Assembly (NCBI RefSeq): GCF_044324875.1
Contig: NZ_CP172185.1
DNA length: 64,000 nt
Direction: 5' to 3' (one strand)
Source: Escherichia coli
GTDB lineage: Bacteria > Pseudomonadota > Gammaproteobacteria > Enterobacterales > Enterobacteriaceae
The number at the start of each line of letters is the position of its first letter. Positions within the stretch are counted from its first letter, which is position 1. Below, in pieces: positions 390-59,926 of the stretch. The notes under the pieces were generated by a model. It did not search any database and was not told where the DNA came from. It saw only the letters and a program-made list of their open reading frames with translations. The position numbers were made by a program, and so were the translations under genes.

Positions 390-1247
390 ATGAACGTGCT
401 ACTGGAACCCTTCAGCTATGAATATATGCTCAATGCGATGTGGGTCGCGGCGATGGTCGGCGGTCTCTGCGCTTTCCTGTCATGCTATCTGATGCTAAAA
501 GGCTGGTCGCTGATTGGCGATGCGCTGTCGCACTCTATCGTCCCGGGTGTTGCGGGGGCATATATGCTGGGGCTTCCGTTTTCTCTGGGGGCCTTCTTTT
601 CCGGTGGACTGGCTGCGGGCAGCATGCTGTTTCTTAACCAACGCACTCGCTTAAAAGAAGATGCCATCATCGGCCTGATCTTCTCGTCCTTTTTTGGCCT
701 GGGGCTGTTTATGGTGTCATTAAACCCGACATCCGTAAATATTCAGACCATCGTCCTGGGCAATATTCTGGCAATCGCTCCGGCGGATATCCTGCAACTC
801 ACTATCATTGGCATTGTCTCAGTCATAGTGCTCTTTTTCAAATGGAAAGATCTTATGGTGACCTTTTTCGACGAGAATCACGCCCGTGCTATTGGATTAT
901 ATCCAGGAAGATTAAAAATCCTCTTCTTCACACTGCTGGCGGTATCGACCGTTGCAGCATTGCAAACGGTTGGGGCTTTTCTGGTGATCTGTCTGGTAGT
1001 GACCCCTGGCGCAACAGCATGGTTGTTAACCGATCGTTTTCCCCGCCTGCTCGTGATTGCTGTAACTATTGGCAGTGTAACCAGTTTCCTCGGCGCGTGG
1101 GTCAGTTACTTTCTGGACGGAGCGACAGGTGGAATCATCGTGGTGGCGCAGACACTGCTGTTTCTTTTAGCATTTGTCTTTGCACCCACCCATGGGCTTT
1201 TGGCAAATCGTCAGCGTGCGCATAAGGCGCTGGAGGATCGCTCATGA
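390..1247 (+). CDS. sitC: SitC, Mn/Fe ABC transporter permease
   Basis: 285 aa polytopic membrane protein typical of metal ABC permeases; starts 6 bp after sitB stop. Confidence 0.9.
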   Translation: MNVLLEPFSYEYMLNAMWVAAMVGGLCAFLSCYLMLKGWSLIGDALSHSIVPGVAGAYMLGLPFSLGAFFSGGLAAGSMLFLNQRTRLKEDAIIGLIFSSFFGLGLFMVSLNPTSVNIQTIVLGNILAIAPADILQLTIIGIVSVIVLFFKWKDLMVTFFDENHARAIGLYPGRLKILFFTLLAVSTVAALQTVGAFLVICLVVTPGATAWLLTDRFPRLLVIAVTIGSVTSFLGAWVSYFLDGATGGIIVVAQTLLFLLAFVFAPTHGLLANRQRAHKALEDRS

Positions 1248-2122
1248 TGGCATTATTACTGGAGCCACTGCAGTTCACCTTTATGAGTCACGCACTGCTG
1301 ATTTCACTGGTAGTTTCCATACCCTGTGCGCTGCTGTCGGTCTTTCTGGTCCTGAAAGGTTGGGCACTGATGGGAGACGCGATGAGTCATGCGGTTTTTC
1401 CTGGTATCGTGCTTGCGTGGATACTGGGTTTTCCTCTGGCGGGAGGAGCATTCGTCGCCGGAGTATTCTGCGCGGTGGCGACGGGATACCTGAAAGACAA
1501 CAGCCGAATCAAGCAAGATACAGTGATGGGGATTGTTTTTTCTGGCATGTTTGCCGCAGGTCTGATCTTGTATATTGCAGTCAAACCCGACGTACATCTT
1601 GACCATATTCTTTTCGGCGACATGCTCGGGGTAACCATCGGCGATATAATCCAGACGGTGATTATTGCCGGGCTGGTTACACTTGTTATTAGCGTAAAAT
1701 GGCGGGATTTTTTGCTGTTCAGCTTTGATTATCAACAGGCGCAGGTAAGCGGTTTGCATACGAGATGGCTGCATTATGGGCTGCTGTGCATGGTCTCTCT
1801 GACCATTGTGGCGACGCTGAAAGCGGTAGGTATCATTCTCTCCATTTCTCTGCTCATTGCGCCTGGCGCCATTGCGGTACTCCTGACGCAACGCTTTCAT
1901 ATTGCGCTCCTGCTGGCGCTCGGTATATCGGTAATGGTCTCAATGACTGGTGTATGGCTCTCCTTTTTTATAGACAGCGCACCAGCACCAACGATTGTTA
2001 TCTTATTCACGGTTGTATTCATCCTGACGTTTACCGCTTCCAGCATCAATGCTCACGCGAAGGAAAATGTCGATCCACAGGATCTCCCGACTAGTACAAC
2101 AACCAGAGAGCAACATCTGTAG
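1244..2122 (+). CDS. sitD: SitD, Mn/Fe ABC transporter permease
   Basis: 292 aa permease paralogous to the preceding ORF; 4-bp overlap with sitC. Confidence 0.9.
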   Translation: MMALLLEPLQFTFMSHALLISLVVSIPCALLSVFLVLKGWALMGDAMSHAVFPGIVLAWILGFPLAGGAFVAGVFCAVATGYLKDNSRIKQDTVMGIVFSGMFAAGLILYIAVKPDVHLDHILFGDMLGVTIGDIIQTVIIAGLVTLVISVKWRDFLLFSFDYQQAQVSGLHTRWLHYGLLCMVSLTIVATLKAVGIILSISLLIAPGAIAVLLTQRFHIALLLALGISVMVSMTGVWLSFFIDSAPAPTIVILFTVVFILTFTASSINAHAKENVDPQDLPTSTTTREQHL

Positions 2123-2469
2123 GCACATAGCAGTCATGGAGACAATCTTGTGAAGTCATAGAGTGTCGGGGGAAGGTATTGAAAGTCCCCGACCTCCGAA
2201 GAAAATATGGGCGGCATGATCAGGAAAACACCGTCAGCTCCTGTATAAAGTTATTTGTTGCCACCGTTGCCCAAATCACTCATATCAACAAACGGAATAT
2301 TCAGTTTGAATCCACATTCCATTGTGGGCGTACGAATAGCATCAAGTTTTGCTGTATTGTCAACAACGGATGAAAAGTGGCACTTCCTTGGATTTACCTC
2401 TATATTTCCAGACATCTGTTATCACTTAACCTGTTACTGTCCTTCAACTGCAGGTGATTCAGGGGGGCC

Positions 2470-3115
2470 AGTCTAACCGTTAAGAACACGTTCCCGAGAT
2501 GAGCGTTTCCGTTGTCGCTCATGTAAAACATGTTTTCCAGCTCACTTACTCTTGGTGAAGTCAGGAAACCCGGCGTTAAGGAGCAGATCGTTGAAATGGC
2601 ACATAACGGCGCAGGTGTCCGTGATACCCATGAACACTGAAAATCGGCATCAATACCGTCATACGGACATTAAAAATGTTTTCGCCCCGGCGGATAACAT
2701 CTACGCCAGTCGTTCACGCTGATGTTGCCCTTATCTTTGAAACTTGATGAGCAGTTAAATTTCGTTGGCAGCAAGGCGCAACAACACTGGTCTGCTTACA
2801 ACACTAAATTGCGGTGTGTTGGCTTATTCTTTCGGGCCACGGAATGATGAGACCTGTCGGGAACTGTTAGCCCTGTTGACTTCGTTCTATATCGGCATAG
2901 TGACCAGCAATGACAGGGGCTGCAACGTCAGAGAAGTGACGAAGGAGAAATACCTGACCGGTAAAATATTCACGCAACCTATTGAACTTAACAACCTGCC
3001 CCTCCGCACCCGCATCAAGCGGCTGGCACGTAAAACAATCTGCTTCTCGCGTTCCGTGAAAATCAACGAAAAAGTCATCGGTTCCGTCATTGAAAAGAAC
3101 ATGTTCTACTGATTG
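2470..3115 (+). mobile_element. Degenerate IS1-family element remnant
   Basis: 2765..3112 translation aligns to the C-terminal half of IS1 InsB (...RLARKTICFSRSVKINEKVIGSVIEKNMFY); upstream frame has InsA-like Cys-rich remnants broken by stops. Confidence 0.5.
2765..3112 (+). pseudogene. IS1-family InsB-like transposase, C-terminal fragment
   Basis: Motif-level similarity to IS1 InsB C-terminus; N-terminal half missing. Confidence 0.5.
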
Positions 3116-3411
3116 GAAGCACTACCACATTTTTCATAGAATACCCAAGATCTTAGCGCAGATCAGTTGAAATGTTGGCACCTATGTTACCAATACTACT
3201 CAATGGCTACTACGGCAGTAGGTTTTCGCTTACCTTTTCATACGGGCAATGAAATGAGGATATGCGATAAATTTCAGTCAAAGATACATAAAACAGGCAT
3301 AATGTTATTCAGTGGTGAGCAGTCCGTTCCGGAGACGGAATATCTTTTTAAGGCCGTATATCAGGGTTTTCCCTTGTTATGGTGGCTGAAGGCATGATGA
3401 TGGTGTTTTAA

Positions 3412-4646
3412 TTGCCAAAGGTCACCGCCATGGACGAAAGGTCCCTCTACGCTCATATTATCAACATGACCGCTCCATGGCAGGTTAAATATCTTTCTCT
3501 CGATGAAAACGCCGGTTCTGTTACCGTCACAGTTGGAATCGCTAAAAATGCCCGGTTAGCCTGTCCGACCTGCGGTAAATCCTGTTCTGTTCACGATCAC
3601 CGTCATCGTAAATGGCGTCATCTTGATATCTGCCAGTTCACCACTATTGTCGAAGCCGATGTGCCCCGCATTATGTGCCCGGAGCATGGCTGCCAGACGT
3701 TGCTAGTTCCCTGGGCTGGCCCCGGAAGGCGGTATACGCTGCTGTTCGACTCGTTCTCTCATGGCTGAAAATCAGCACTGTTGATGCTGTAAGGAAACAA
3801 CTTAAGCTCAGCTGGAATGCGGTTGACGGCATTATGACCCGGGCAGTTAAGCGAGGTCTTGCCCGGATAAAAAAGCCATTATCCGCCCGTCATATGAATG
3901 TGGATGAGGTCGCCTTTAAAAAAGGACATTGTTATATAACTGTGATCTCCGATCGCGATGGTCGTGCACTGGCCTTAACGGACGATCGTGGCACAGAGAG
4001 CCTCGCCGGCTATCTTCGCACGCTTACTGACGGGCAGTTGCTGGCTATCAAAACGCTCTCAATGGACATGAATGCAGGCTGTATAAGAGCAGCGCGTATC
4101 CACTTACCCTGTGCGGTTGAGAAAATCGCCTTCGACCGCTTCCATGTAGCAAAGCAACTTGGTGAAGTGGTTGATAAAATCCGTCAGGATGAACATCCAC
4201 ACCTCCCTGTTGAAAGTCGGCGTCAGGCAAAGGGGACCCGCTTCCTGTGGCAGTACAACGATAAATGGATGACCGAATCCAGGCAGGAAAAGCTGATATG
4301 GCTGCGTGCACAGATGAAGCTGACAAGCCTGTGCTGGGCGCTGAAAGAGCTGGCAAAGAATATCTGGAACAGGCCATGAAGTGAGGAAAGACGTAATGAG
4401 TGGGAGAGATTGCTGGCTCTGGCGGCCAACAGTGACATTACTATGATGAAAAACGCCACGAAAACGATAGGAAAAAGGCTGTATGGGATCCTGAATGCCA
4501 TGCGACACCGTGTCTCAAACGGAAACGCGGAGGCGCTTAACAGTAAGCTCAGGCTGCTGAGGATAAAAGCTAGGGGATACCGCAATCGGGAACGCTTTAA
4601 GCTGGGCGTGATGTTCCACTACGGGAAACTGAATATGGCGTTTTGA
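3412..4646 (+). pseudogene. ISL3-family transposase, split into three frames
   Basis: ORFs 3412..3768, 3675..4379, 4410..4646 together give N-terminal zinc finger (CPTCGK...CPEHGC), DDE core (MNVDEVAFKKGHCYITVISD...DRFHVAKQL) and typical C-terminus. Confidence 0.8.
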
Positions 4647-4710
4647 GCCTTCCCACCATGATCAGGGAAGGCCCTTATATCAACATACCTTTGTTTCCAA
4701 AGAATTCCTG

Positions 4711-6912
4711 TCAGAATAATACTGAGTAACTCAGACCAAAGGTGCGGCCCCTGCCTTTGTAGCCGTACAGTGAAGCAGGGCCGTAACCCGGGCTGTAGTA
4801 CAGTGGCGCACGCTGCCCCCAGACAGTGGTGTAGTCACGGTCGAAGAGGTTTTCAATGCTGAAGCTGAGTGTACCCACCGGAAGCTGATAACTGCCAAGC
4901 AAATCGACGATGGTATAGCCATCGACCTTGTAGCCCTGCGCGTCGCTCACGTCAAAGGAGGTGGTGCTCTGCACTCGCAGACTCCACGGGTCCGGTGCCC
5001 AGCCAATGTAGGCTGTCGCTTTTGATGGGCTTGCTGTCTTCACATCGTATTTCTGCCAGGTACCGTTCACTTTCGACTCAGTTTTCAGCACGTTGAAGTT
5101 CACTCCGGTACTCCAGTCAGTATCAGGAATCAGGTAGTCCACCGCACCTTCCACGCCGTAAATACGGCGTTTGTCGTCCACCACACTGATGGTCAGATCT
5201 TTATTCGCCACCACGCTCTTATCAGAAATCGAATAGTAGGCCGCGATTTGGGTGCGCAGATTATTGCCAGTAAAGCGCCAGCCCAGCTCATAAGAATCGA
5301 CTTTCACGCCTTCCAGCTTGCTGTCGCTGACGTTCACACTCTTTGTTAGAGGAAGATGGCCGTTCACTGCAGCACCATAGATGCCGCGACCATAGTATTT
5401 ACCCGGGTCCGGCAGCTCCACGCCCTGGGAGAAGTTGAGCCATGCCTGCTGGCGTTCGGTGATATGCATCAGCAGACCAGCGTTGAACAGGAAGTTGTCG
5501 TAATCGACTGAGCCGCCAGGAATGGCGTCGGCGGATGTAGCCTTCCCGGCGGCAATCTGCCGTTGCTGCGCGTAGCCGATGAAATCATCAATCTTGTTTT
5601 CAGTGTACTGATAGCGTACGCCACCGTTGAGGGTAAAGAGATTATTGATGTCATAGCCTGATTGCAGGAAGACCGCCAGGTTGGTGATGTCATACGACGG
5701 ATAGCGCCCGGTGGTGTAAATCTTCTTGTTGTTCAGCCCTCCGGAAGCGCTTGCTTGAGCCAGGTCGAAGAACATCTGGTTGGAGGTAAAGCGCTCATGA
5801 TCAGCATCCAGCCCCCAGGTGATTTGCCAGCCGTCCATCGGTTTGCTGTTCAGAGTCAGTTTCATGCCGTACTGGTCGGTGTCCTGCTGTGACGAAGAGA
5901 AAGCCGTCACCTGTTTGTTCGCATTTACCGTCGGGAACGGGTAGAATCGCAACGACTCATCGCGGTAGTAAACCTGACCGACCAGCTCCTGTCCCAGGAA
6001 AGCGCTGTCAGAGTACTGCAGGCTGATCAAATGCCGCTCAGTGCCGGGAATACGGTCGGAATTCAGCCCGTTACTGACGAAGGGCGTGCTGGTCCCTCTG
6101 ATGGCAGAGAAGCCTTTCCCGAGATTAAGCCCGTAATCGTCGTCGCCCTGGCTTTTATAGTACTGTGTGATCAACTGAAGCTGCCGGGATTCATCGATGT
6201 TCAACGTTCCAGTTCCCATGATGTCCAGCCGATCGGAGTACTGCAGGCCGGTCTGGGTGTTATCAAGCAGGGTGGCATCGCCGTTACCGTCAAACCAGCC
6301 GCCAAATTTCTGATATGCCACGGAAAGACGTCCGGAGATATGCTCATTTCCGCCGGAGACAGCTCCGGCAATGCGTTCATCGTGATCTTTACTGCTGCTA
6401 AAGCCACTTTTGGTGCCAGCCTCAAACTCCTTCATGGTTTCCGGCTGGCCTTTTTTGCTCACGATGTTGATCAGGCCACCGGTACTGCCGCCGCCATACA
6501 GGGACGTCGCACCGGAGATCACTTCAATATGGTCGATATTAAAAGGATCTATAGAGTCCAGTTGTCGGCTGTCGGTACGTGAAGAGTTGAGACGCACGCC
6601 GTCAACCAGCACGACCAGCGGGCGGCCACGCACATTCATACCGTAGTTGGTGCGGCTCCGGCTGCTGACGTCAAGGCCAGGGATCAGCTGAGCCAGTGCG
6701 TCCTTAAGCTCTTTGCCGCCCTGAATCTGCTGTTCCAGTTCGGCGTTTTCGATAACCCAGGTGGTTTGTGCCATCTCCGCTACGGTGCGATTGCTGCGGT
6801 TGGCAGACACCACGAACGTTTCATCATCGGTTTGTTGAGCGACTGCTGGCGCCATCATGGTAAGAAGCAGTGGGTTGAGAGCCCAAAGCGTATACTTTTT
6901 GCTTATCATCAT
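4711..6912 (-). CDS. iutA: IutA, TonB-dependent ferric aerobactin receptor
   Basis: 733 aa with signal peptide, TonB box region, plug and beta-barrel ending in aromatic residue (…SYSVLF); sits immediately downstream of iucD. Confidence 0.93.
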   Translation of the reverse strand: MMISKKYTLWALNPLLLTMMAPAVAQQTDDETFVVSANRSNRTVAEMAQTTWVIENAELEQQIQGGKELKDALAQLIPGLDVSSRSRTNYGMNVRGRPLVVLVDGVRLNSSRTDSRQLDSIDPFNIDHIEVISGATSLYGGGSTGGLINIVSKKGQPETMKEFEAGTKSGFSSSKDHDERIAGAVSGGNEHISGRLSVAYQKFGGWFDGNGDATLLDNTQTGLQYSDRLDIMGTGTLNIDESRQLQLITQYYKSQGDDDYGLNLGKGFSAIRGTSTPFVSNGLNSDRIPGTERHLISLQYSDSAFLGQELVGQVYYRDESLRFYPFPTVNANKQVTAFSSSQQDTDQYGMKLTLNSKPMDGWQITWGLDADHERFTSNQMFFDLAQASASGGLNNKKIYTTGRYPSYDITNLAVFLQSGYDINNLFTLNGGVRYQYTENKIDDFIGYAQQRQIAAGKATSADAIPGGSVDYDNFLFNAGLLMHITERQQAWLNFSQGVELPDPGKYYGRGIYGAAVNGHLPLTKSVNVSDSKLEGVKVDSYELGWRFTGNNLRTQIAAYYSISDKSVVANKDLTISVVDDKRRIYGVEGAVDYLIPDTDWSTGVNFNVLKTESKVNGTWQKYDVKTASPSKATAYIGWAPDPWSLRVQSTTSFDVSDAQGYKVDGYTIVDLLGSYQLPVGTLSFSIENLFDRDYTTVWGQRAPLYYSPGYGPASLYGYKGRGRTFGLSYSVLF

Positions 6913-6993
6913 TATTCCTCCACACGGGCGGAAAAAATCAGCCCAAAGATGCTGTGTAGCGAGTTAAAGAAGCAGCCTCCGGCTGCGTTTTCC

Positions 6994-8271
6994 CTAGGTG
7001 CCGCTGCGCCACTGAATCAGGGCGGGCGGCATACTGAGATCGAATAAATCACGTCCCATTACACGATTAAGAATACGTGCAGATCTCCATGCCATCAGGC
7101 TGAGCTGAGGTTCGGCGATGCCATGGGTTTGCATACTGGCGTTGACCACGAAGATGTTGTTCTCTTTCGGGCCACTCCATTCCAGAGTGAAGTCATCACG
7201 CACTTTAAAGGTGTTCTTATCGTGCATGGTGATCAGCGGCATCAGTGAGGGAAGTATTTGTGGCAACGCAGAACGGTAACCTGTGGCGAAAATCACCACA
7301 TCACTTTCCAGGCTCTCCCTGCCCTGATCCAGATGATGCTCCATCAGCAACTTCCAGCCAGGACCACTACTTTCCAGAGTTGTTACCGAGCGGCTAGGTA
7401 GCAGACGGATATTTCTTGGTTTTCTCAGAACTTCAAAACGGTGGTACAACTCACGATAAATGGTCAGTAAAGAATCGGCAGTGATGCCATCCGATGTCAT
7501 TTTCTGCTCATCCAGTAACTGATGGCGAATATCTTCCTCCAGTCCGGAGAAGCCTGAAATATATTCAGGTGTAAAATACTCATCAGCAAAAGCAGCCTCA
7601 TCCAGTGCGTTAAAATTATTCCGCCGGGAGATCCAGTTTATTTCCGCCGCTTCTCCCCATTCCCCGCGTAATGCATTAAGGAACAGGTCTGCACCACTCT
7701 GTCCTCCACCAACCACGGTTACCCGTTTTTCACTAAGGTCCGGCCGACGAAGATTCATTTCACTGGCATGGAAACAGGATTGTGTCATATGCTTCACACA
7801 GGGTGGTAAATAAGGTTGTTTTCCTGTACCAAGGCAGATATTGTGGGCAAAATATTCTCCCCGGCTGGTTTGCACCAGAAACAATCGACGTTTTTTATCG
7901 AAATCAATGTTTTCAACGGTATGACTGAAATACAGGTTATTCATATCTTCAGCAGCCCAGCGGAGGTAGTCAGAAAACTCTTCACGGGATACTGTACGTA
8001 GTCTGCTTGTAAGGAAGCGATAGAACTTTTTGTGCTTCACCAGATAGTTAACAAAGCTGTAGGGATTTGTAGGTGCAACAGCACTGACCAGATCTTTCAG
8101 AAAGACGGTCTGCATATGACAATCCGGTACCAGCATACCCGGATGCCAGGAAAAATGAGGATGTTCATCAAAGAAGAGACAGTCCAGTTCTTCGATCTGA
8201 TGTGACAACGCAGCAATGCTGAGATTAAATGGCCCTGTCCCTACACCAATAAAATCGACACTTTTTTTCAT
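6994..8271 (-). CDS. iucD: IucD, L-lysine N6-monooxygenase
   Basis: 425 aa; FAD GxGxxG motif near N-terminus (FIGVGTGPFNLS) and second dinucleotide motif (VVGGGQSGAD); position in operon. Confidence 0.93.
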   Translation of the reverse strand: MKKSVDFIGVGTGPFNLSIAALSHQIEELDCLFFDEHPHFSWHPGMLVPDCHMQTVFLKDLVSAVAPTNPYSFVNYLVKHKKFYRFLTSRLRTVSREEFSDYLRWAAEDMNNLYFSHTVENIDFDKKRRLFLVQTSRGEYFAHNICLGTGKQPYLPPCVKHMTQSCFHASEMNLRRPDLSEKRVTVVGGGQSGADLFLNALRGEWGEAAEINWISRRNNFNALDEAAFADEYFTPEYISGFSGLEEDIRHQLLDEQKMTSDGITADSLLTIYRELYHRFEVLRKPRNIRLLPSRSVTTLESSGPGWKLLMEHHLDQGRESLESDVVIFATGYRSALPQILPSLMPLITMHDKNTFKVRDDFTLEWSGPKENNIFVVNASMQTHGIAEPQLSLMAWRSARILNRVMGRDLFDLSMPPALIQWRSGT

Positions 8272-10010
8272 GATTCATATTCCTGAGTTACCAGCCACAG
8301 CGGATTTTGCAGATCCTCAAGGTAATTCGGCAGCATGCGGCTGCCGCCATCCAGATCAGGCCAGGTCAGTTTTACCGGGTTCAGCACCACGCGAATGATT
8401 TGTGGCCTGAAAAGTGAGAAAAGCGCAAAACGCTCTGACATTTGTGGATGTTTTTTCATGTAATCACTCAACACTGCTGCCAGCAGTTGATAAAATCGCC
8501 GTTCAGGTACGCCAAGACGAACCATCAGTGGCGAAATAAAACGCAGTACTGTCACGAAGTGACCCGTCTGCAAATCATGGATTAAGTAGTCCGCACTCAG
8601 GCGGGATGTAACATCACGAACCTCCTGAGGCAAAGAGTCCATTTCGGGGAACTCTTCTTTCACCAGCCGCATATCGCCCTGGAAGTCTTTCAGCAGAACA
8701 CGCTGTGGAACCCCCTTTTTCATGGCGAGCGTTATATTTTGTCCATGTGCAATAAGCGCGACACCGTAGCGGCAAAGCAGGTGATACAGAGGAACCACGA
8801 CCACCCGGAACAGTTGCGTAAGCCAGGTTTCAGCGTCCAGCCCGGAGCGGTCTATATATGCGCCTGCCAGCGGCTGATCGTTTTCGTCGCACTCCATCAG
8901 TGTTGCCATCAGAACCGGACTTTCATCCGGTTTCAGCCAGCGGCACGGATTCTCCCGCCAGATAACACCAAGCATTTCCTGGTAGCGATAGGGAGCCCGG
9001 GCAAGCGCGGCATAGCCTTCATGGGAGACATAGCCTGCAGCCGGTTCACCAAGGATCACTGCACCGCTTTGCACCAGGGTAGCGTCGGTCGCAAAAACCT
9101 GTTGTAGCCAGCGTGAAGCCAGTGGTCCGGCAGCGATGTATCTGCCAGGAATCCCCCGGTAGCATGAGGTGTTGTAGATGGTCAGCGGCAGCTTGATATC
9201 CAGCCCACCCCGGCGACTGGCGTTGGTCAGGGTACGCAGCGACTGCTGGGCGAGCCACTGGTCGCCAAACTCGCCGAGAGACACCATCCTGCCTTCGGCA
9301 AAATCAGCGATGAAGTCGGTGGCGATTTTTTGCTGCCACTGCCACGGATGTACAGGCAGCGGCAGCCAGTTATGATCCAGTCCGTTTTCCTGCCAGACCT
9401 GACTGAAGCGGGCAAACTCCTGCGGATCCATTGCGGCCGTCAACAACTGATGAATATCCATCTCGTTATCACAGCGCCAGATCATATGTTCACGTTTTAC
9501 CGCCAGCCAGTGCAGTCTAAAGGTGTTGGCATACTCTGGCGCATATCGTTCCAGCGCCTCTTTACCCCAGCCACGGCGACCTTTATTAAAAACGAATTTA
9601 GGATGACCGCTCAGCAGGCATTGCAGGCGGTCGGCACTAAGATTAATCAGGTCACTGGCGCTCAGCCCGCGACGGGCTTTCAGCAGTTGCAGGTCGCCCA
9701 GCAGCGTGGAATACAAATCCTGCATATGCTCAGCAACGGTTGCATCGCTCATTGACAGTACCTGCTTTAGCTGCATCAGCAGCGTCTGAGCCAGTACTGG
9801 CTCGTCCGCGCAGCGCAGAGTTTGAGCATCAATCCAGAGCCAGCCCCAGATACCACGTTCAGCGATGAAGCGCCATTGTGCTCCCGGCAGGTTAATGCAG
9901 TAGCGGTCATCGCCCTGAGATTCCGCGTGGAAAACCTGCTCATACTCCAGCTCAGACAACATTTTTGCCACCAAGCGGCGGTTGACCAAATCCCAGTCTT
10001 TGTGATTCAT
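8268..10010 (-). CDS. iucC: IucC, aerobactin synthase (IucA/IucC family)
   Basis: 580 aa NRPS-independent siderophore synthetase; 4-bp overlap with iucD. Confidence 0.93.
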   Translation of the reverse strand: MNHKDWDLVNRRLVAKMLSELEYEQVFHAESQGDDRYCINLPGAQWRFIAERGIWGWLWIDAQTLRCADEPVLAQTLLMQLKQVLSMSDATVAEHMQDLYSTLLGDLQLLKARRGLSASDLINLSADRLQCLLSGHPKFVFNKGRRGWGKEALERYAPEYANTFRLHWLAVKREHMIWRCDNEMDIHQLLTAAMDPQEFARFSQVWQENGLDHNWLPLPVHPWQWQQKIATDFIADFAEGRMVSLGEFGDQWLAQQSLRTLTNASRRGGLDIKLPLTIYNTSCYRGIPGRYIAAGPLASRWLQQVFATDATLVQSGAVILGEPAAGYVSHEGYAALARAPYRYQEMLGVIWRENPCRWLKPDESPVLMATLMECDENDQPLAGAYIDRSGLDAETWLTQLFRVVVVPLYHLLCRYGVALIAHGQNITLAMKKGVPQRVLLKDFQGDMRLVKEEFPEMDSLPQEVRDVTSRLSADYLIHDLQTGHFVTVLRFISPLMVRLGVPERRFYQLLAAVLSDYMKKHPQMSERFALFSLFRPQIIRVVLNPVKLTWPDLDGGSRMLPNYLEDLQNPLWLVTQEYES

Positions 10011-10957
10011 TACAGACCGACCTCCGTGAAGAAGTGATGACGATCCGCCATCACCATGCGCGAGCGTTTATGTGGGAAGTCGAACTCTTTAATTGTCCGG
10101 TATCCCGCAGGCTCAAGATGGCGGAACAGGCGCTGGTTATCGGTGCGTGGCTCCAGTACTGTGCGCTGCGTACGTGGCTCATTCAGCAGCAGGTAATGTG
10201 TCACCCCGCGCAGCCAGCTTTGCACATAGTGGGCTCCGCGCCATTGCTGTTCACCAACCAGCAGATGCAGGCCACGGTCAAAGGGCTGCCACGAATAGTG
10301 GCGACCAATGCGGTCTTCCGCCGCCCAGTAGATTTCGAAATAACTGAACGGCCGATCGTCGAAACAACCAATCAGCGGGAATGCATGTTTACTGGTGAGC
10401 TGGCGTTCCAGATAGGCGATCTGTACCTCCAGTGAGCCACTTTGCTCCCAGAAATACTCAACGCGCGGATCGTTCATCCAGCGAGTGAAACGTTCTGCAT
10501 CAGAAACGGGATCGGCAATGCGGAAACTCAGCATCCTGCGAATGCGTGGATCGTAACGACGATAAACTTCACCCTGCGGACGGGGGGGGCGCTGCGGGAA
10601 ATAAATCTCACGCTCTGCATCAAAAACCATTTCACCGGAGGCCCGGTTTGCCGGAGAACTCAGCCATAACGGTAACTGCCAGAAAGCGGAACGATGGATA
10701 ATGTCGCTTTGTACCTGTCCGAAAAGCGTCAGCGCCTGTGGCTCCTCACACCATTCGGACCAGGGAAGAACCACTGCTGAAAGTTGTGGTGCGGCGATAA
10801 ATATCTGATCCAGCGCGTCGCACAGCCATCCTGTTGGCAGCTCCCCGGGCCAGTGCAACACCGCGCTATTGTCCAGCCCCCAGCCAAGATTCAGAGGCTT
10901 GTCGAGTTTTTCACAGCGCAGTCCATATCCGCTGTGAACAATGTTTGCCCCAGACAT
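10010..10957 (-). CDS. iucB: IucB, N6-hydroxylysine O-acetyltransferase
   Basis: 315 aa acetyltransferase between iucA and iucC. Confidence 0.92.
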   Translation of the reverse strand: MSGANIVHSGYGLRCEKLDKPLNLGWGLDNSAVLHWPGELPTGWLCDALDQIFIAAPQLSAVVLPWSEWCEEPQALTLFGQVQSDIIHRSAFWQLPLWLSSPANRASGEMVFDAEREIYFPQRPPRPQGEVYRRYDPRIRRMLSFRIADPVSDAERFTRWMNDPRVEYFWEQSGSLEVQIAYLERQLTSKHAFPLIGCFDDRPFSYFEIYWAAEDRIGRHYSWQPFDRGLHLLVGEQQWRGAHYVQSWLRGVTHYLLLNEPRTQRTVLEPRTDNQRLFRHLEPAGYRTIKEFDFPHKRSRMVMADRHHFFTEVGL

Positions 10958-52977: not shown

Positions 52978-53054
52978 TGGACCGCCACCGGGGACTCGAA
53001 CCCCGCACAGTCAGCTTAGAAGGCTGATGCTCTCTCATGATGAGCTAGTGGCGG
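52978..53054 (-). tRNA. tRNA-Arg (anticodon UCU)
   Basis: Folds by eye: 7-bp acceptor (CCGCCAC/GTGGCGG), D arm, anticodon loop CTTCTAA, T arm CGGGG-TTCGAGT-CCCCG. Confidence 0.7.
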
Positions 53055-53055
53055 T

Positions 53056-53131
53056 TGGTGGCCCTTGCTGGATTTGAACCAGCGACCTGGCGATTATGAG
53101 TCGCTCGCTCTCACCACTGAGCTAAAGGGCC
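53056..53131 (-). tRNA. tRNA-Ile2 (anticodon CAU), ileX/ileZ-like
   Basis: GGCCCTTTAGCTCAGTGGTGAGAGCGAGCGACTCATAATCGCCAGGTCGCTGGTTCAAATCCAGCAAGGGCCACCA; very close to E. coli ileX. Confidence 0.8.

Positions 53132-57483: not shown

Positions 57484-59926
<2,443 letters not shown>

What the first reader, a model, noticed from the sequence alone, without database searches (positions are those of the whole stretch)
2400..4700. Decayed IS1-like and ISL3-like elements between sitD and iutA
The sit and aerobactin loci are joined through IS remnants, which suggests the island was assembled by successive IS-mediated events, as seen on ColV/ColBM-type plasmids and in SHI-2/SHI-3-like chromosomal islands. 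The replicon type cannot be decided from this window.
Basis: partly seen in the sequence, partly recalled or inferred. Interest (0 to 1): 0.35.

Follow-up and report, generated by a model that had tools for sequence, protein, structure and literature searches.

The report
Dead insertion sequences between sit and aerobactin
The 2.6 kb between the sitABCD and aerobactin iron-uptake operons holds broken remains of four insertion sequences; it is an ordinary module boundary in a chromosomal E. coli genomic island that RefSeq already annotates.

Summary
An IS1-family remnant (2490-3126) and an ISL3-family pseudogene element (3364-4674) lie between sitD (ends 2122) and iutA (ends 4711).

Two more unannotated remnants lie at 2358-2497. 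One is an IS21-family terminal repeat. It is split by an 87-bp IS2 derivative that keeps both IS2 ends.

The ISL3 element did not join the two operons. Native iutA-flank DNA lies on both sides of it, and near-identical 8-bp repeats flank it. The real discontinuity is where the IS21-type fragment meets the IS1 remnant, which has lost its first 124 nt.

The replicon can be decided:
- The sitD-to-iutA junction occurs in 50 complete E. coli chromosomes.
- Its left part is 100% identical in 51 chromosomes, including SMS-3-5, where it lies inside the published pheV genomic island.
- It occurs in none of 72,556 plasmids.
- The rest of the window is a lambdoid prophage.

ColV-type plasmids also link sit and aerobactin, but with the aerobactin block in the opposite orientation and with different junctions. 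This is therefore not a recently integrated ColV segment.

RefSeq already annotates both called elements as pseudogenes. The finding is ordinary and of low interest.

The parts
1244..2122 (+). sitD, the last gene of the sit module. It encodes 292 aa against 285 aa on a ColV-like plasmid, because of a 7-nt indel near the 3' end.
   Evidence: ORF. Annotated sitD in SCU-115 and SMS-3-5. BLAST similarity to the plasmid sit allele (95.4%) runs to 2083. A weaker alignment continues to about 2120.
2123..2357 (.). Spacer A, on the sit side, of unknown origin. It contains a hairpin at about 2164-2192.
   Evidence: No match in 72,556 plasmids even with word-11 blastn. Among E. coli genomes it matches only in island carriers. 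No Pfam hit for its ORFs. In strain NRZ14408 an intact IS1414 sits in this spacer.
2358..2388 (+). IS21-family terminal inverted repeat. The outer end is at 2358, facing sitD.
   Evidence: TGTCAACAACGGATGAAAAGTG is identical at 22 of 23 nt to the right terminal repeat of the IS100 copy in this window (59866 inward). It is 92.9% identical over 28 nt to another IS21-type end at 15540-15513.
2389..2475 (.). 87-bp IS2 derivative that keeps both IS2 termini, with about 20 nt of unrelated filler in between. No 5-bp target duplication (TTCCT on the left, AACCG on the right).
   Evidence: 40 of 42 nt match one end of a complete 1331-bp IS2 (L008 1604-2934). About 22 nt match the other end, including a 13/13 core.
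2476..2497 (+). Continuation of the IS21-type fragment, ending in GTTCCCGA. This overlaps the first 7-8 nt of the IS1 remnant.
   Evidence: The 140-bp unit 2358-2497 recurs at 88.6% identity with unrelated flanks in at least 8 other E. coli chromosomes, for example AR_0085.
2490..3126 (+). IS1-family remnant, corresponding to positions 125-766 of a 766-bp element. The right inverted repeat is intact and ends at 3126. The left 124 nt, including the left repeat and the insA start, are missing.
   Evidence: 89.8% identity, 7 gap openings and premature stops against the Shigella plasmid copy annotated as coding. Pfam DDE_Tnp_IS1 E=5.5e-38. No trace of positions 1-124 anywhere in 1900-3400. PGAP calls it 'missing N-terminus'.
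3127..3234 (.). Spacer B, on the aerobactin side, of unknown origin.
   Evidence: Matches only in island-bearing genomes.
3235..3363 (.). Distal part of the native iutA-downstream flank. The ISL3 insertion separates it from iutA.
   Evidence: 93.7% identical to DNA directly downstream of iutA in sat-iutA chromosomal islands such as SK1144 (L006).
3364..4674 (+). ISL3-family element related to ISKox3. It is full length but inactivated, with imperfect terminal repeats (17 of the first 22 nt match).
   Evidence: 96.35% identity over 1315 aligned positions to the ISL3 copy annotated as coding in L004, and about 91% to ISKox3. Lesions: a 4-bp deletion after 3750 and TGG>TGA at 4377-4379. Pfam and NCBIfam ISL3 domains.
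3356..3363 (.). Left flanking octamer GTATATCA.
   Evidence: Matches the right octamer TTATATCA at 7 of 8 positions. Caveat: related loci carry a hairpin here whose arms contain similar octamers.
4675..4682 (.). Right flanking octamer TTATATCA.
4683..6912 (-). Proximal iutA 3' flank (4683-4710) and iutA (4711-6912), which begin the aerobactin module.
   Evidence: Intact 733-aa ORF. The block 4677-14019 is 98.7% identical to a ColV-like plasmid. Plasmid similarity starts at 4677.

Best explanation
The sitD-iutA interval is a non-functional scar of insertion sequences at the boundary between two modules of a chromosomal E. coli genomic island. In strain SMS-3-5 that island is the one integrated at the pheV tRNA gene.

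Shown:
- Four IS families are present. They are an IS21-type terminal fragment, an 87-bp IS2 derivative nested inside it, an IS1-family element lacking its first 124 nt, and a full-length but inactivated ISKox3-like ISL3 element.
- The aerobactin module reaches from iutA out to 3235. The ISL3 element sits inside that module's own 3' flank. It occupies the position of the hairpin found downstream of iutA in related loci, and near-identical octamers bracket it.
- The only place where unrelated DNA is abutted is 2358-2497/2490. There an IS21-type end faces the sit side and is fused to the truncated IS1 remnant, whose intact right end faces the aerobactin side.

Inferred:
- At least one deletion removed most of the IS21-type element, the left 124 nt of the IS1 element and an unknown length of intervening DNA. 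It either started at an IS terminus or ran between two ISs across the 7-8-nt GTTCCCG(A) overlap. This brought sit to within 2.6 kb of iutA.
- The ISL3 element arrived later and was then disabled.
- The whole scar was fixed once, before the block spread. It is 99.8-100% identical in about 50 chromosomes.
- It remains a landing pad for new ISs.
- None of the remnants is likely to have a cellular function. sitD and iutA remain intact ORFs.
For: Identity of the elements.

IS21 end and IS2 derivative.

Missing IS1 left end: no trace of positions 1-124; PGAP 'missing N-terminus'.

ISL3 as an insertion into native flank: DNA on both sides is contiguous in SK1144-type islands; the octamers match at 7 of 8 positions.

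Limits of similarity to other sit and aerobactin loci: 2083 to about 2120 for sit, 3235 and 4677 for aerobactin.

Chromosomal location:
- 50 genomes carry the full junction and 51 are 100% identical over 2340-2500. All listed records are chromosomes.
- 0 of 72,556 plasmids carry it.
- The SMS-3-5 coordinates 3,254,643-3,257,233 lie inside GI-pheV at 3,197,159-3,289,098 (PMC11537424).
- The window contains a lambdoid prophage, and the ORFs scanned against Pfam showed no plasmid rep/tra domains.

Continuing IS accretion: intact IS1414 in NRZ14408 and an intact IS3-family element in XDL.
Against: - No intermediate state was found. There is no genome with the island but without ISL3, and none with a full IS21-type or full IS1 element at this site. 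The order of events is therefore inferred from anatomy only.
- The 140-bp unit 2358-2497 ends at the same right boundary in a second, unrelated locus (AR_0085). This fits a discrete miniature element better than a one-off deletion endpoint, so the exact mechanism of the IS21/IS1 fusion is unresolved.
- The octamers flanking ISL3 may partly pre-exist as arms of the hairpin. About 30-45 bp of hairpin interior is missing, so the insertion was not perfectly clean.
- Spacers A and B have no known relatives. It cannot be shown that they belonged to the sit and aerobactin modules respectively.
- The window's own context beyond 20.8 kb (a prophage) differs from SCU-115. No compared genome covered that stretch well, so its chromosomal site is not established.
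Confidence: 0.8

Rival explanations
1. All the IS remnants are later passengers. sit and aerobactin were already adjacent in an ancestral spacer, and the ISs simply inserted into it one after another without causing the linkage.
For: The ISL3 element behaves exactly this way. New intact ISs have inserted into the same interval in NRZ14408 and XDL. Spacers A and B are unique, so they could be two halves of one old intergenic region.
Against: The IS1 remnant lacks 124 nt, and the missing part is not present to the left of the IS21-type end. At least one deletion of flanking or intervening DNA must therefore have occurred at this point. No empty site joining spacer A to spacer B was found in 5,426 E. 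coli genomes or 72,556 plasmids.
Confidence: 0.15
2. The block is a segment of a ColV/ColBM-type virulence plasmid that integrated into the chromosome through IS1 copies.
For: The aerobactin block 4677-14019 is 98.7% identical to a ColV-like plasmid. Both operons are linked within about 18 kb on such plasmids and are bracketed there by IS1A.
Against: - The aerobactin block has the opposite orientation relative to sit, and crcB is absent.
- The sit allele is only 95.4% identical.
- The IS1-family remnant here is only 35-37% identical in amino acids to IS1A.
- Neither junction is shared, and no plasmid carries this junction.
- No plasmid backbone genes were found in the ORFs of the window that were scanned.
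Confidence: 0.04
3. The two ISL3-family elements at 3364-4674 and about 14271-15455 form a composite transposon that carried shiF-iucABCD-iutA into place next to sit.
For: Both are on the + strand and bracket the aerobactin block.
Against: The two copies share no detectable DNA similarity. The first copy has its own flanking octamers and lies inside native aerobactin flank. Similarity of the aerobactin block to plasmids ends at 14019, before the second copy.
Confidence: 0.01

Closest known systems
GI-pheV of E. coli SMS-3-5 (phylogroup F, ST354), catalogued in PMC11537424; mosaic tRNA-integrated genomic islands in general
   Same: The identical sitD-IS1-ISL3-iutA junction lies inside the published island coordinates. 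The paper describes such islands as gene modules separated by insertion sequences, which is what is seen here.
   Different: The paper does not describe this junction in detail. In the window the block is followed by a lambdoid prophage from about 20.8 kb, unlike SMS-3-5 and SCU-115. The window's own integration site is not visible.
ColV/ColBM-type virulence plasmid iron-uptake region (shown here by p14EC020b, IncFIB/FIC)
   Same: It carries sitABCD and shiF-iucABCD-iutA close together, bounded by IS elements. Its aerobactin block is 98.7% identical.
   Different: The aerobactin block has the opposite orientation relative to sit, crcB lies between the two, and canonical IS1A sits at the edges. 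The sit allele is 95.4% identical, and no junction is shared.
CFT073/SK1144-type GI-pheV shiF_iucABCD_iutA_sat module
   Same: It shares the aerobactin block (98.6%) and 127 bp of the iutA-distal flank (window 3235-3361). It therefore provides the uninterrupted site for the ISL3 insertion.
   Different: sat, not sit, lies beyond iutA. No ISL3, IS1, IS21 or IS2 remnants are annotated there, and the hairpin downstream of iutA is intact.
ISKox3 (ISL3 family) and the 'iso-IS1' of Shigella flexneri pCP301
   Same: These are the nearest named relatives of the two called elements: about 91% and 89.8% DNA identity.
   Different: The window copies are pseudogenes. The IS1-family copy is also truncated at its left end.

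Membership tests
IS1 family | InsB-type DDE transposase domain | tested here: met
   Pfam DDE_Tnp_IS1 E=5.5e-38, profile positions 29-131 of 131. NCBIfam transpos_IS1 scores 53 bits, below the full-length cutoff, as expected for a fragment.
IS1 family | Upstream insA reading frame followed by insB, in an element of about 770 bp | tested here: inconclusive
   DNA aligns to positions 125-766 of a 766-bp element annotated as coding, including most of insA. Seven indels and stop codons break both frames, and the insA start is missing.
IS1 family | Terminal inverted repeats at both ends | tested here: not met
   The right repeat is present and ends at 3126. The left repeat and the first 124 nt are absent from 1900-3400. 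The element is a truncated remnant, not a complete member.
IS1 family | Target-site duplication of about 8-9 bp | not testable with these tools
   The left end is deleted, so there is no pair of flanks to compare.
ISL3 family | DDE_Tnp_ISL3 transposase with an N-terminal zinc ribbon and HTH | tested here: met
   Pfam Zn_ribbon_ISL3 E=1.6e-12. DDE_Tnp_ISL3 E=6.9e-29 and 1.6e-15 in two fragments. NCBIfam transpos_ISL3 covers positions 2-370 across three fragments.
ISL3 family | Imperfect terminal inverted repeats | tested here: met
   GGGTTTTCCCTTGTTATGGTGG against GGGCCTTCCCTGATCATGGTGG. 17 of the first 22 nt match, and the repeats lie at the same positions as in ISKox3 and the L004 copy.
ISL3 family | 8-bp AT-rich target duplication | tested here: inconclusive
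   GTATATCA against TTATATCA matches at 7 of 8 positions. However, related loci have similar octamers in the two arms of a hairpin at this site.
ISL3 family | Intact transposase gene (autonomous element) | tested here: not met
   A 4-bp deletion after 3750 shifts the frame, and TGG>TGA at 4377-4379 stops it. PGAP calls it a pseudogene.
IS2 (IS3 family) | IS2 terminal sequences at both ends | tested here: met
   40 of 42 nt match one end and about 22 nt match the other, compared with a complete 1331-bp IS2.
IS2 (IS3 family) | orfA/orfB transposase and 5-bp target duplication | tested here: not met
   Only 87 bp remain. The flanks TTCCT and AACCG differ.
IS21 family | Terminal repeat beginning TGTCA and matching a known member | tested here: met
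   22 of 23 nt are identical to the IS100 right terminal repeat in the same window.
IS21 family | istA/istB genes | tested here: not met
   At most about 53 bp of IS21-type sequence remains (2358-2388 plus 2476-2497).
ColV/ColBM plasmid virulence region | Same gene order and junctions, on a plasmid replicon | tested here: not met
   The order and orientation differ. No plasmid among 72,556 carries the junction. The ORFs of the window scanned against Pfam showed no rep/tra domains.
Chromosomal tRNA-integrated genomic island (GI-pheV type) | Location inside an island bounded by pheV and a direct repeat, with a P4-type integrase | tested here: inconclusive
   Met for SMS-3-5 by coordinates. The island ends are outside the window, and the SCU-115 and window contexts differ.

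The most novel reading that the evidence does not exclude
sit and aerobactin became tightly linked at least twice independently. One linkage is on ColV-type plasmids. The other is in this chromosomal island, through an IS-associated deletion, with opposite relative orientation, different junctions and a sit allele about 5% diverged. Repeated linkage would point to selection for inheriting the two systems together. This would fit the reported joint contribution of aer and sit to extra-intestinal virulence (PMC10282060). A smaller side possibility is that the 140-bp IS21-end/IS2 unit is a mobilisable nested miniature element.
Probability: 0.25. Interest if true: 0.35.

Novelty: already known. 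Interest (0 to 1): 0.12.

Why it matters
It matters little beyond good annotation.

- The block is chromosomal, not a ColV plasmid segment. This is useful when sit and iuc/iutA are used as plasmid markers in typing of avian and extra-intestinal E. coli.
- The real module boundary is the IS21/IS1 fusion at about 2490, not the ISL3 element.
- The fixed scar is a convenient lineage marker for this island. It is 100% identical over 161 bp in 51 chromosomes.
- The opposite arrangement on ColV plasmids hints that the sit-aerobactin linkage arose more than once. That could be tested with allele phylogenies.

Tried and rejected
1. I first read 2353-2389 as the left inverted repeat of a full-length (774-bp) IS1 element, with a weak 6/9 target duplication. 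I rejected this for two reasons. The 2358-2385 stretch matches IS21-family termini elsewhere in the window. The Shigella reference copy shows that IS1 positions 1-124 are absent.

2. I first read the sitD similarity break at 2083-2085 as a breakpoint inside sitD. A gapped alignment shows weaker similarity continuing to about 2120, with a 7-nt indel. The break is therefore at the gene end.

3. The composite-transposon idea for the two ISL3 elements was rejected because they share no DNA similarity.

4. Spacer A found no relatives in plasmids with word-11 blastn.

5. The IS2-derivative junction found no exact match in 100,044 species-representative genomes.

6. A search for IS1-like sequence downstream of the AR_0085 copy of the 140-bp unit found nothing significant.

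7. Promoter/terminator and inverted-repeat scans of 2050-4800 gave nothing above shuffled expectation that bears on function.

8. I could not find a complete genome collinear with the window beyond 20.8 kb.
Full report
**What is there**

The window begins with the 3' part of sitB, then sitC (390-1247) and sitD (1244-2122) on the + strand. iutA (4711-6912), iucD, iucC, iucB and iucA lie on the - strand, followed by an MFS transporter (shiF type, 12818-14011). The finding concerns the 2.6 kb between sitD and iutA.

**The ISL3-family element**

- The stretch 3364-4674 (1311 bp) aligns end to end with an ISL3-family element annotated as coding on E. coli plasmid pRHB35-C14_2. Identity is 96.35%, with 44 mismatches and one 4-nt gap. 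It is about 91% identical to ISKox3 of Klebsiella and Enterobacter.
- Its three ORF fragments carry Zn_ribbon_ISL3 and DDE_Tnp_ISL3.
- Two lesions disable it: a 4-bp deletion after 3750 that shifts the frame, and TGG>TGA at 4377-4379.
- The terminal repeats are in place; 17 of the first 22 nt match.
- The flanking octamers are GTATATCA and TTATATCA.

**The IS1-family remnant**

- The stretch 2490-3126 aligns to positions 125-766 of a 766-bp IS1-family element on a Shigella flexneri plasmid, which PGAP annotates as coding. Identity is 89.8%, with 7 gap openings.
- The depositors of pCP301 labelled the same element 'iso-IS1'.
- This subgroup is distant from classical IS1: 35-37% amino-acid identity to IS1A/IS1X4.
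- The right inverted repeat ends at 3126. The first 124 nt are found nowhere in 1900-3400.

- 2358-2388 begins with TGTCAACAACGGATGAAAAGTG. This is identical at 22 of 23 nt to the terminal repeat of the IS100 copy at 57912-59866 in this same window. It is 93% identical to another IS21-type end at 15513-15540.
- Immediately after it, 2389-2475 is an 87-bp derivative of IS2. It keeps 40 of 42 nt of one IS2 terminus and about 22 nt of the other, with about 20 nt of unrelated filler and no 5-bp target duplication.
- The IS21-type sequence resumes at 2476 and runs to GTTCCCGA (2490-2497). This overlaps the first 7-8 nt of the IS1 alignment.
- The 140-bp unit 2358-2497 recurs at 88.6% identity, with unrelated flanks, in at least 8 other E. 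coli chromosomes such as AR_0085.
- PGAP annotates nothing there in most genomes.

**Where the modules end**

- Similarity to other sit loci, plasmid or chromosomal, stops at the end of sitD. BLAST stops at 2083-2085, and a gapped alignment continues to about 2120 with a 7-nt indel that gives SitD a different 292-aa tail.
- Spacer A (2123-2357) has no relatives outside island carriers.
- On the other side, the aerobactin block 4677-14019 is 98.7% identical to a ColV-like plasmid and 98.6% to the SK1144 chromosomal island.
- In sat-iutA islands of the SK1144/CFT073 type, the DNA downstream of iutA continues into a sequence 93.7% identical to window 3235-3361. Both flanks of the ISL3 element are therefore native aerobactin flank, and the element is a later insertion into it.
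- At the insertion point the related loci carry a hairpin whose arms contain octamers like those flanking the ISL3 element. The hairpin interior (30-45 bp) is missing from the window. The flanking repeat is consistent with an 8-bp target duplication but is not clean proof of one.
- Spacer B (3127-3234) is again unique.

**How it most likely arose**

The only point where unrelated DNA is abutted is the IS21/IS1 fusion.

- The IS21-type terminus at 2358 is a true element end. The flanks differ between the window and AR_0085 exactly there.
- It faces the sit side. The intact IS1 right end faces the aerobactin side.
- The IS1 left 124 nt is not present to the left of the IS21 end. At least one deletion must therefore have removed it, along with most of the IS21-type element and an unknown amount of DNA.
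- That deletion was either an adjacent deletion from an IS terminus or a deletion between the two ISs at the GTTCCCG(A) overlap. This is inference from anatomy; no intermediate state was found.
- The identical right boundary of the 140-bp unit in AR_0085 is unexplained. It could mean the unit is a discrete miniature element.
- The ISL3 element came later. It is much less decayed (two lesions at 96% identity to its nearest coding-annotated relative, against seven indels at 90% for the IS1 remnant).
- The interval keeps collecting ISs. There is an intact IS1414 in spacer A of NRZ14408 and an intact IS3-family element inside the IS1 remnant of XDL.

**Replicon and context**

- The junction 2100-4720 is covered at 80% or more in 50 complete E. 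coli genomes. The 2340-2500 segment is 100% identical in 51 records, all chromosomes of 4.86-5.71 Mb, from poultry, humans, swine and a wild bird. It is covered in none of 72,556 plasmids.
- One carrier is SMS-3-5. There the junction (3,254,643-3,257,233) lies inside the 91,940-bp GI-pheV at 3,197,159-3,289,098 listed in PMC11537424. That paper describes such islands as modules separated by insertion sequences.
- The window is collinear with SCU-115 only to about 20.8 kb. Beyond that it is a lambdoid prophage:
  - tail fibre, gpJ and tape-measure genes;
  - portal and terminase gpA genes;
  - lysozyme and antiterminator Q genes;
  - lambda-P-like replication gene;
  - tRNA-Arg and tRNA-Met at 52978-53131;
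  - IS66, IS21 and IS100 insertions.
- The 24 larger ORFs downstream of the aerobactin operon that were scanned against Pfam showed no plasmid replication or transfer domains. A chromosomal origin is very likely.

**Comparison with ColV plasmids**

- On p14EC020b (IncFIB/FIC) the order is IS1A-iutA-iucDCBA-shiF-crcB-sitDCBA-IS1A. Relative to sit, the aerobactin block has the opposite orientation to the window, and sitD faces crcB/shiF rather than iutA.
- Plasmid similarity ends at 2083 on the sit side and at 4677 and 14019 on the aerobactin side.
- The sit allele differs by 4.6%.
- The block is therefore not a recently integrated ColV segment, and the linkage in the two settings has different junctions.
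- Chromosomal location of iuc and sit in phylogroups B2, D and F is already documented (PMC10282060).

**Verdict**

IS-scarred modular assembly is supported, but the ISL3 element is not a joiner, the ColV synteny differs, and the replicon can be called chromosomal. The extra anatomy (the IS21 end, the 87-bp IS2 derivative, and the insertion at the hairpin downstream of iutA) is new detail of a familiar kind. Interest is low.

Noticed in passing
window 2358-2497; also L009 5001-5139 (E. coli AR_0085): A 140-bp unit recurs at 88.6% identity with unrelated flanks in at least 8 other E. coli chromosomes. It consists of an IS21-family terminal repeat split by an 87-bp IS2 derivative that keeps both IS2 ends. 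It is unannotated in most genomes. Its IS2/filler junction has no exact match in 100,044 species-representative genomes.
   Followed up: partly
window about 14271-15455; L010 13556-13625: A second ISL3-family pseudogene lies about 260 bp after the shiF-type MFS gene. It is unrelated in DNA to the first ISL3 element. A 70-bp piece of it (84% identity) lies 28 bp downstream of sitD on a ColV-like plasmid. This hints at an old shared IS neighbour of the two arrangements.
   Followed up: partly
window 2085-2122: SitD here is 292 aa, against 285 aa on the ColV-like plasmid. A 7-nt indel near the 3' end gives it a different C-terminal tail. Whether this affects function is unknown.
   Followed up: partly
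window 6938-8271 (iucD): PGAP marks iucD as 'frameshifted' in SCU-115, SMS-3-5 and SK1144. The window has an intact 425-aa ORF (6994-8271), the same length as the iucD that AMRFinder calls on the plasmid. This is probably an annotation-model artefact rather than a broken gene.
   Followed up: no
window 3356-3363 / 4675-4710: Related aerobactin loci have a hairpin directly downstream of iutA. The ISL3 element replaces its interior here, so iutA transcription may end differently or read into the IS.
   Followed up: partly
window about 20700-64000: A lambdoid prophage directly adjoins the island segment. It carries tail fibre to lambda-P-like replication genes, tRNA-Arg(tct) and tRNA-Met at 52978-53131, and IS66, IS21 and IS100 insertions. 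None of the complete genomes compared covered this stretch at 80% or more, and SCU-115 diverges from the window at about 20.8 kb.
   Followed up: partly
L014 (NRZ14408) and L015 (XDL): Other carriers of the junction have additional intact ISs inside it. IS1414 lies in spacer A, and an IS3-family element splits the IS1 remnant. The interval is a continuing IS landing pad.
   Followed up: yes
L001/L002 (SCU-115, NZ_CP054368.1 about 452,650-507,000): In SCU-115 the distal (yee/cbtA-type) end of the island abuts ynjB rather than the pheV region. This suggests a large rearrangement or a different integration site in that strain.
   Followed up: no
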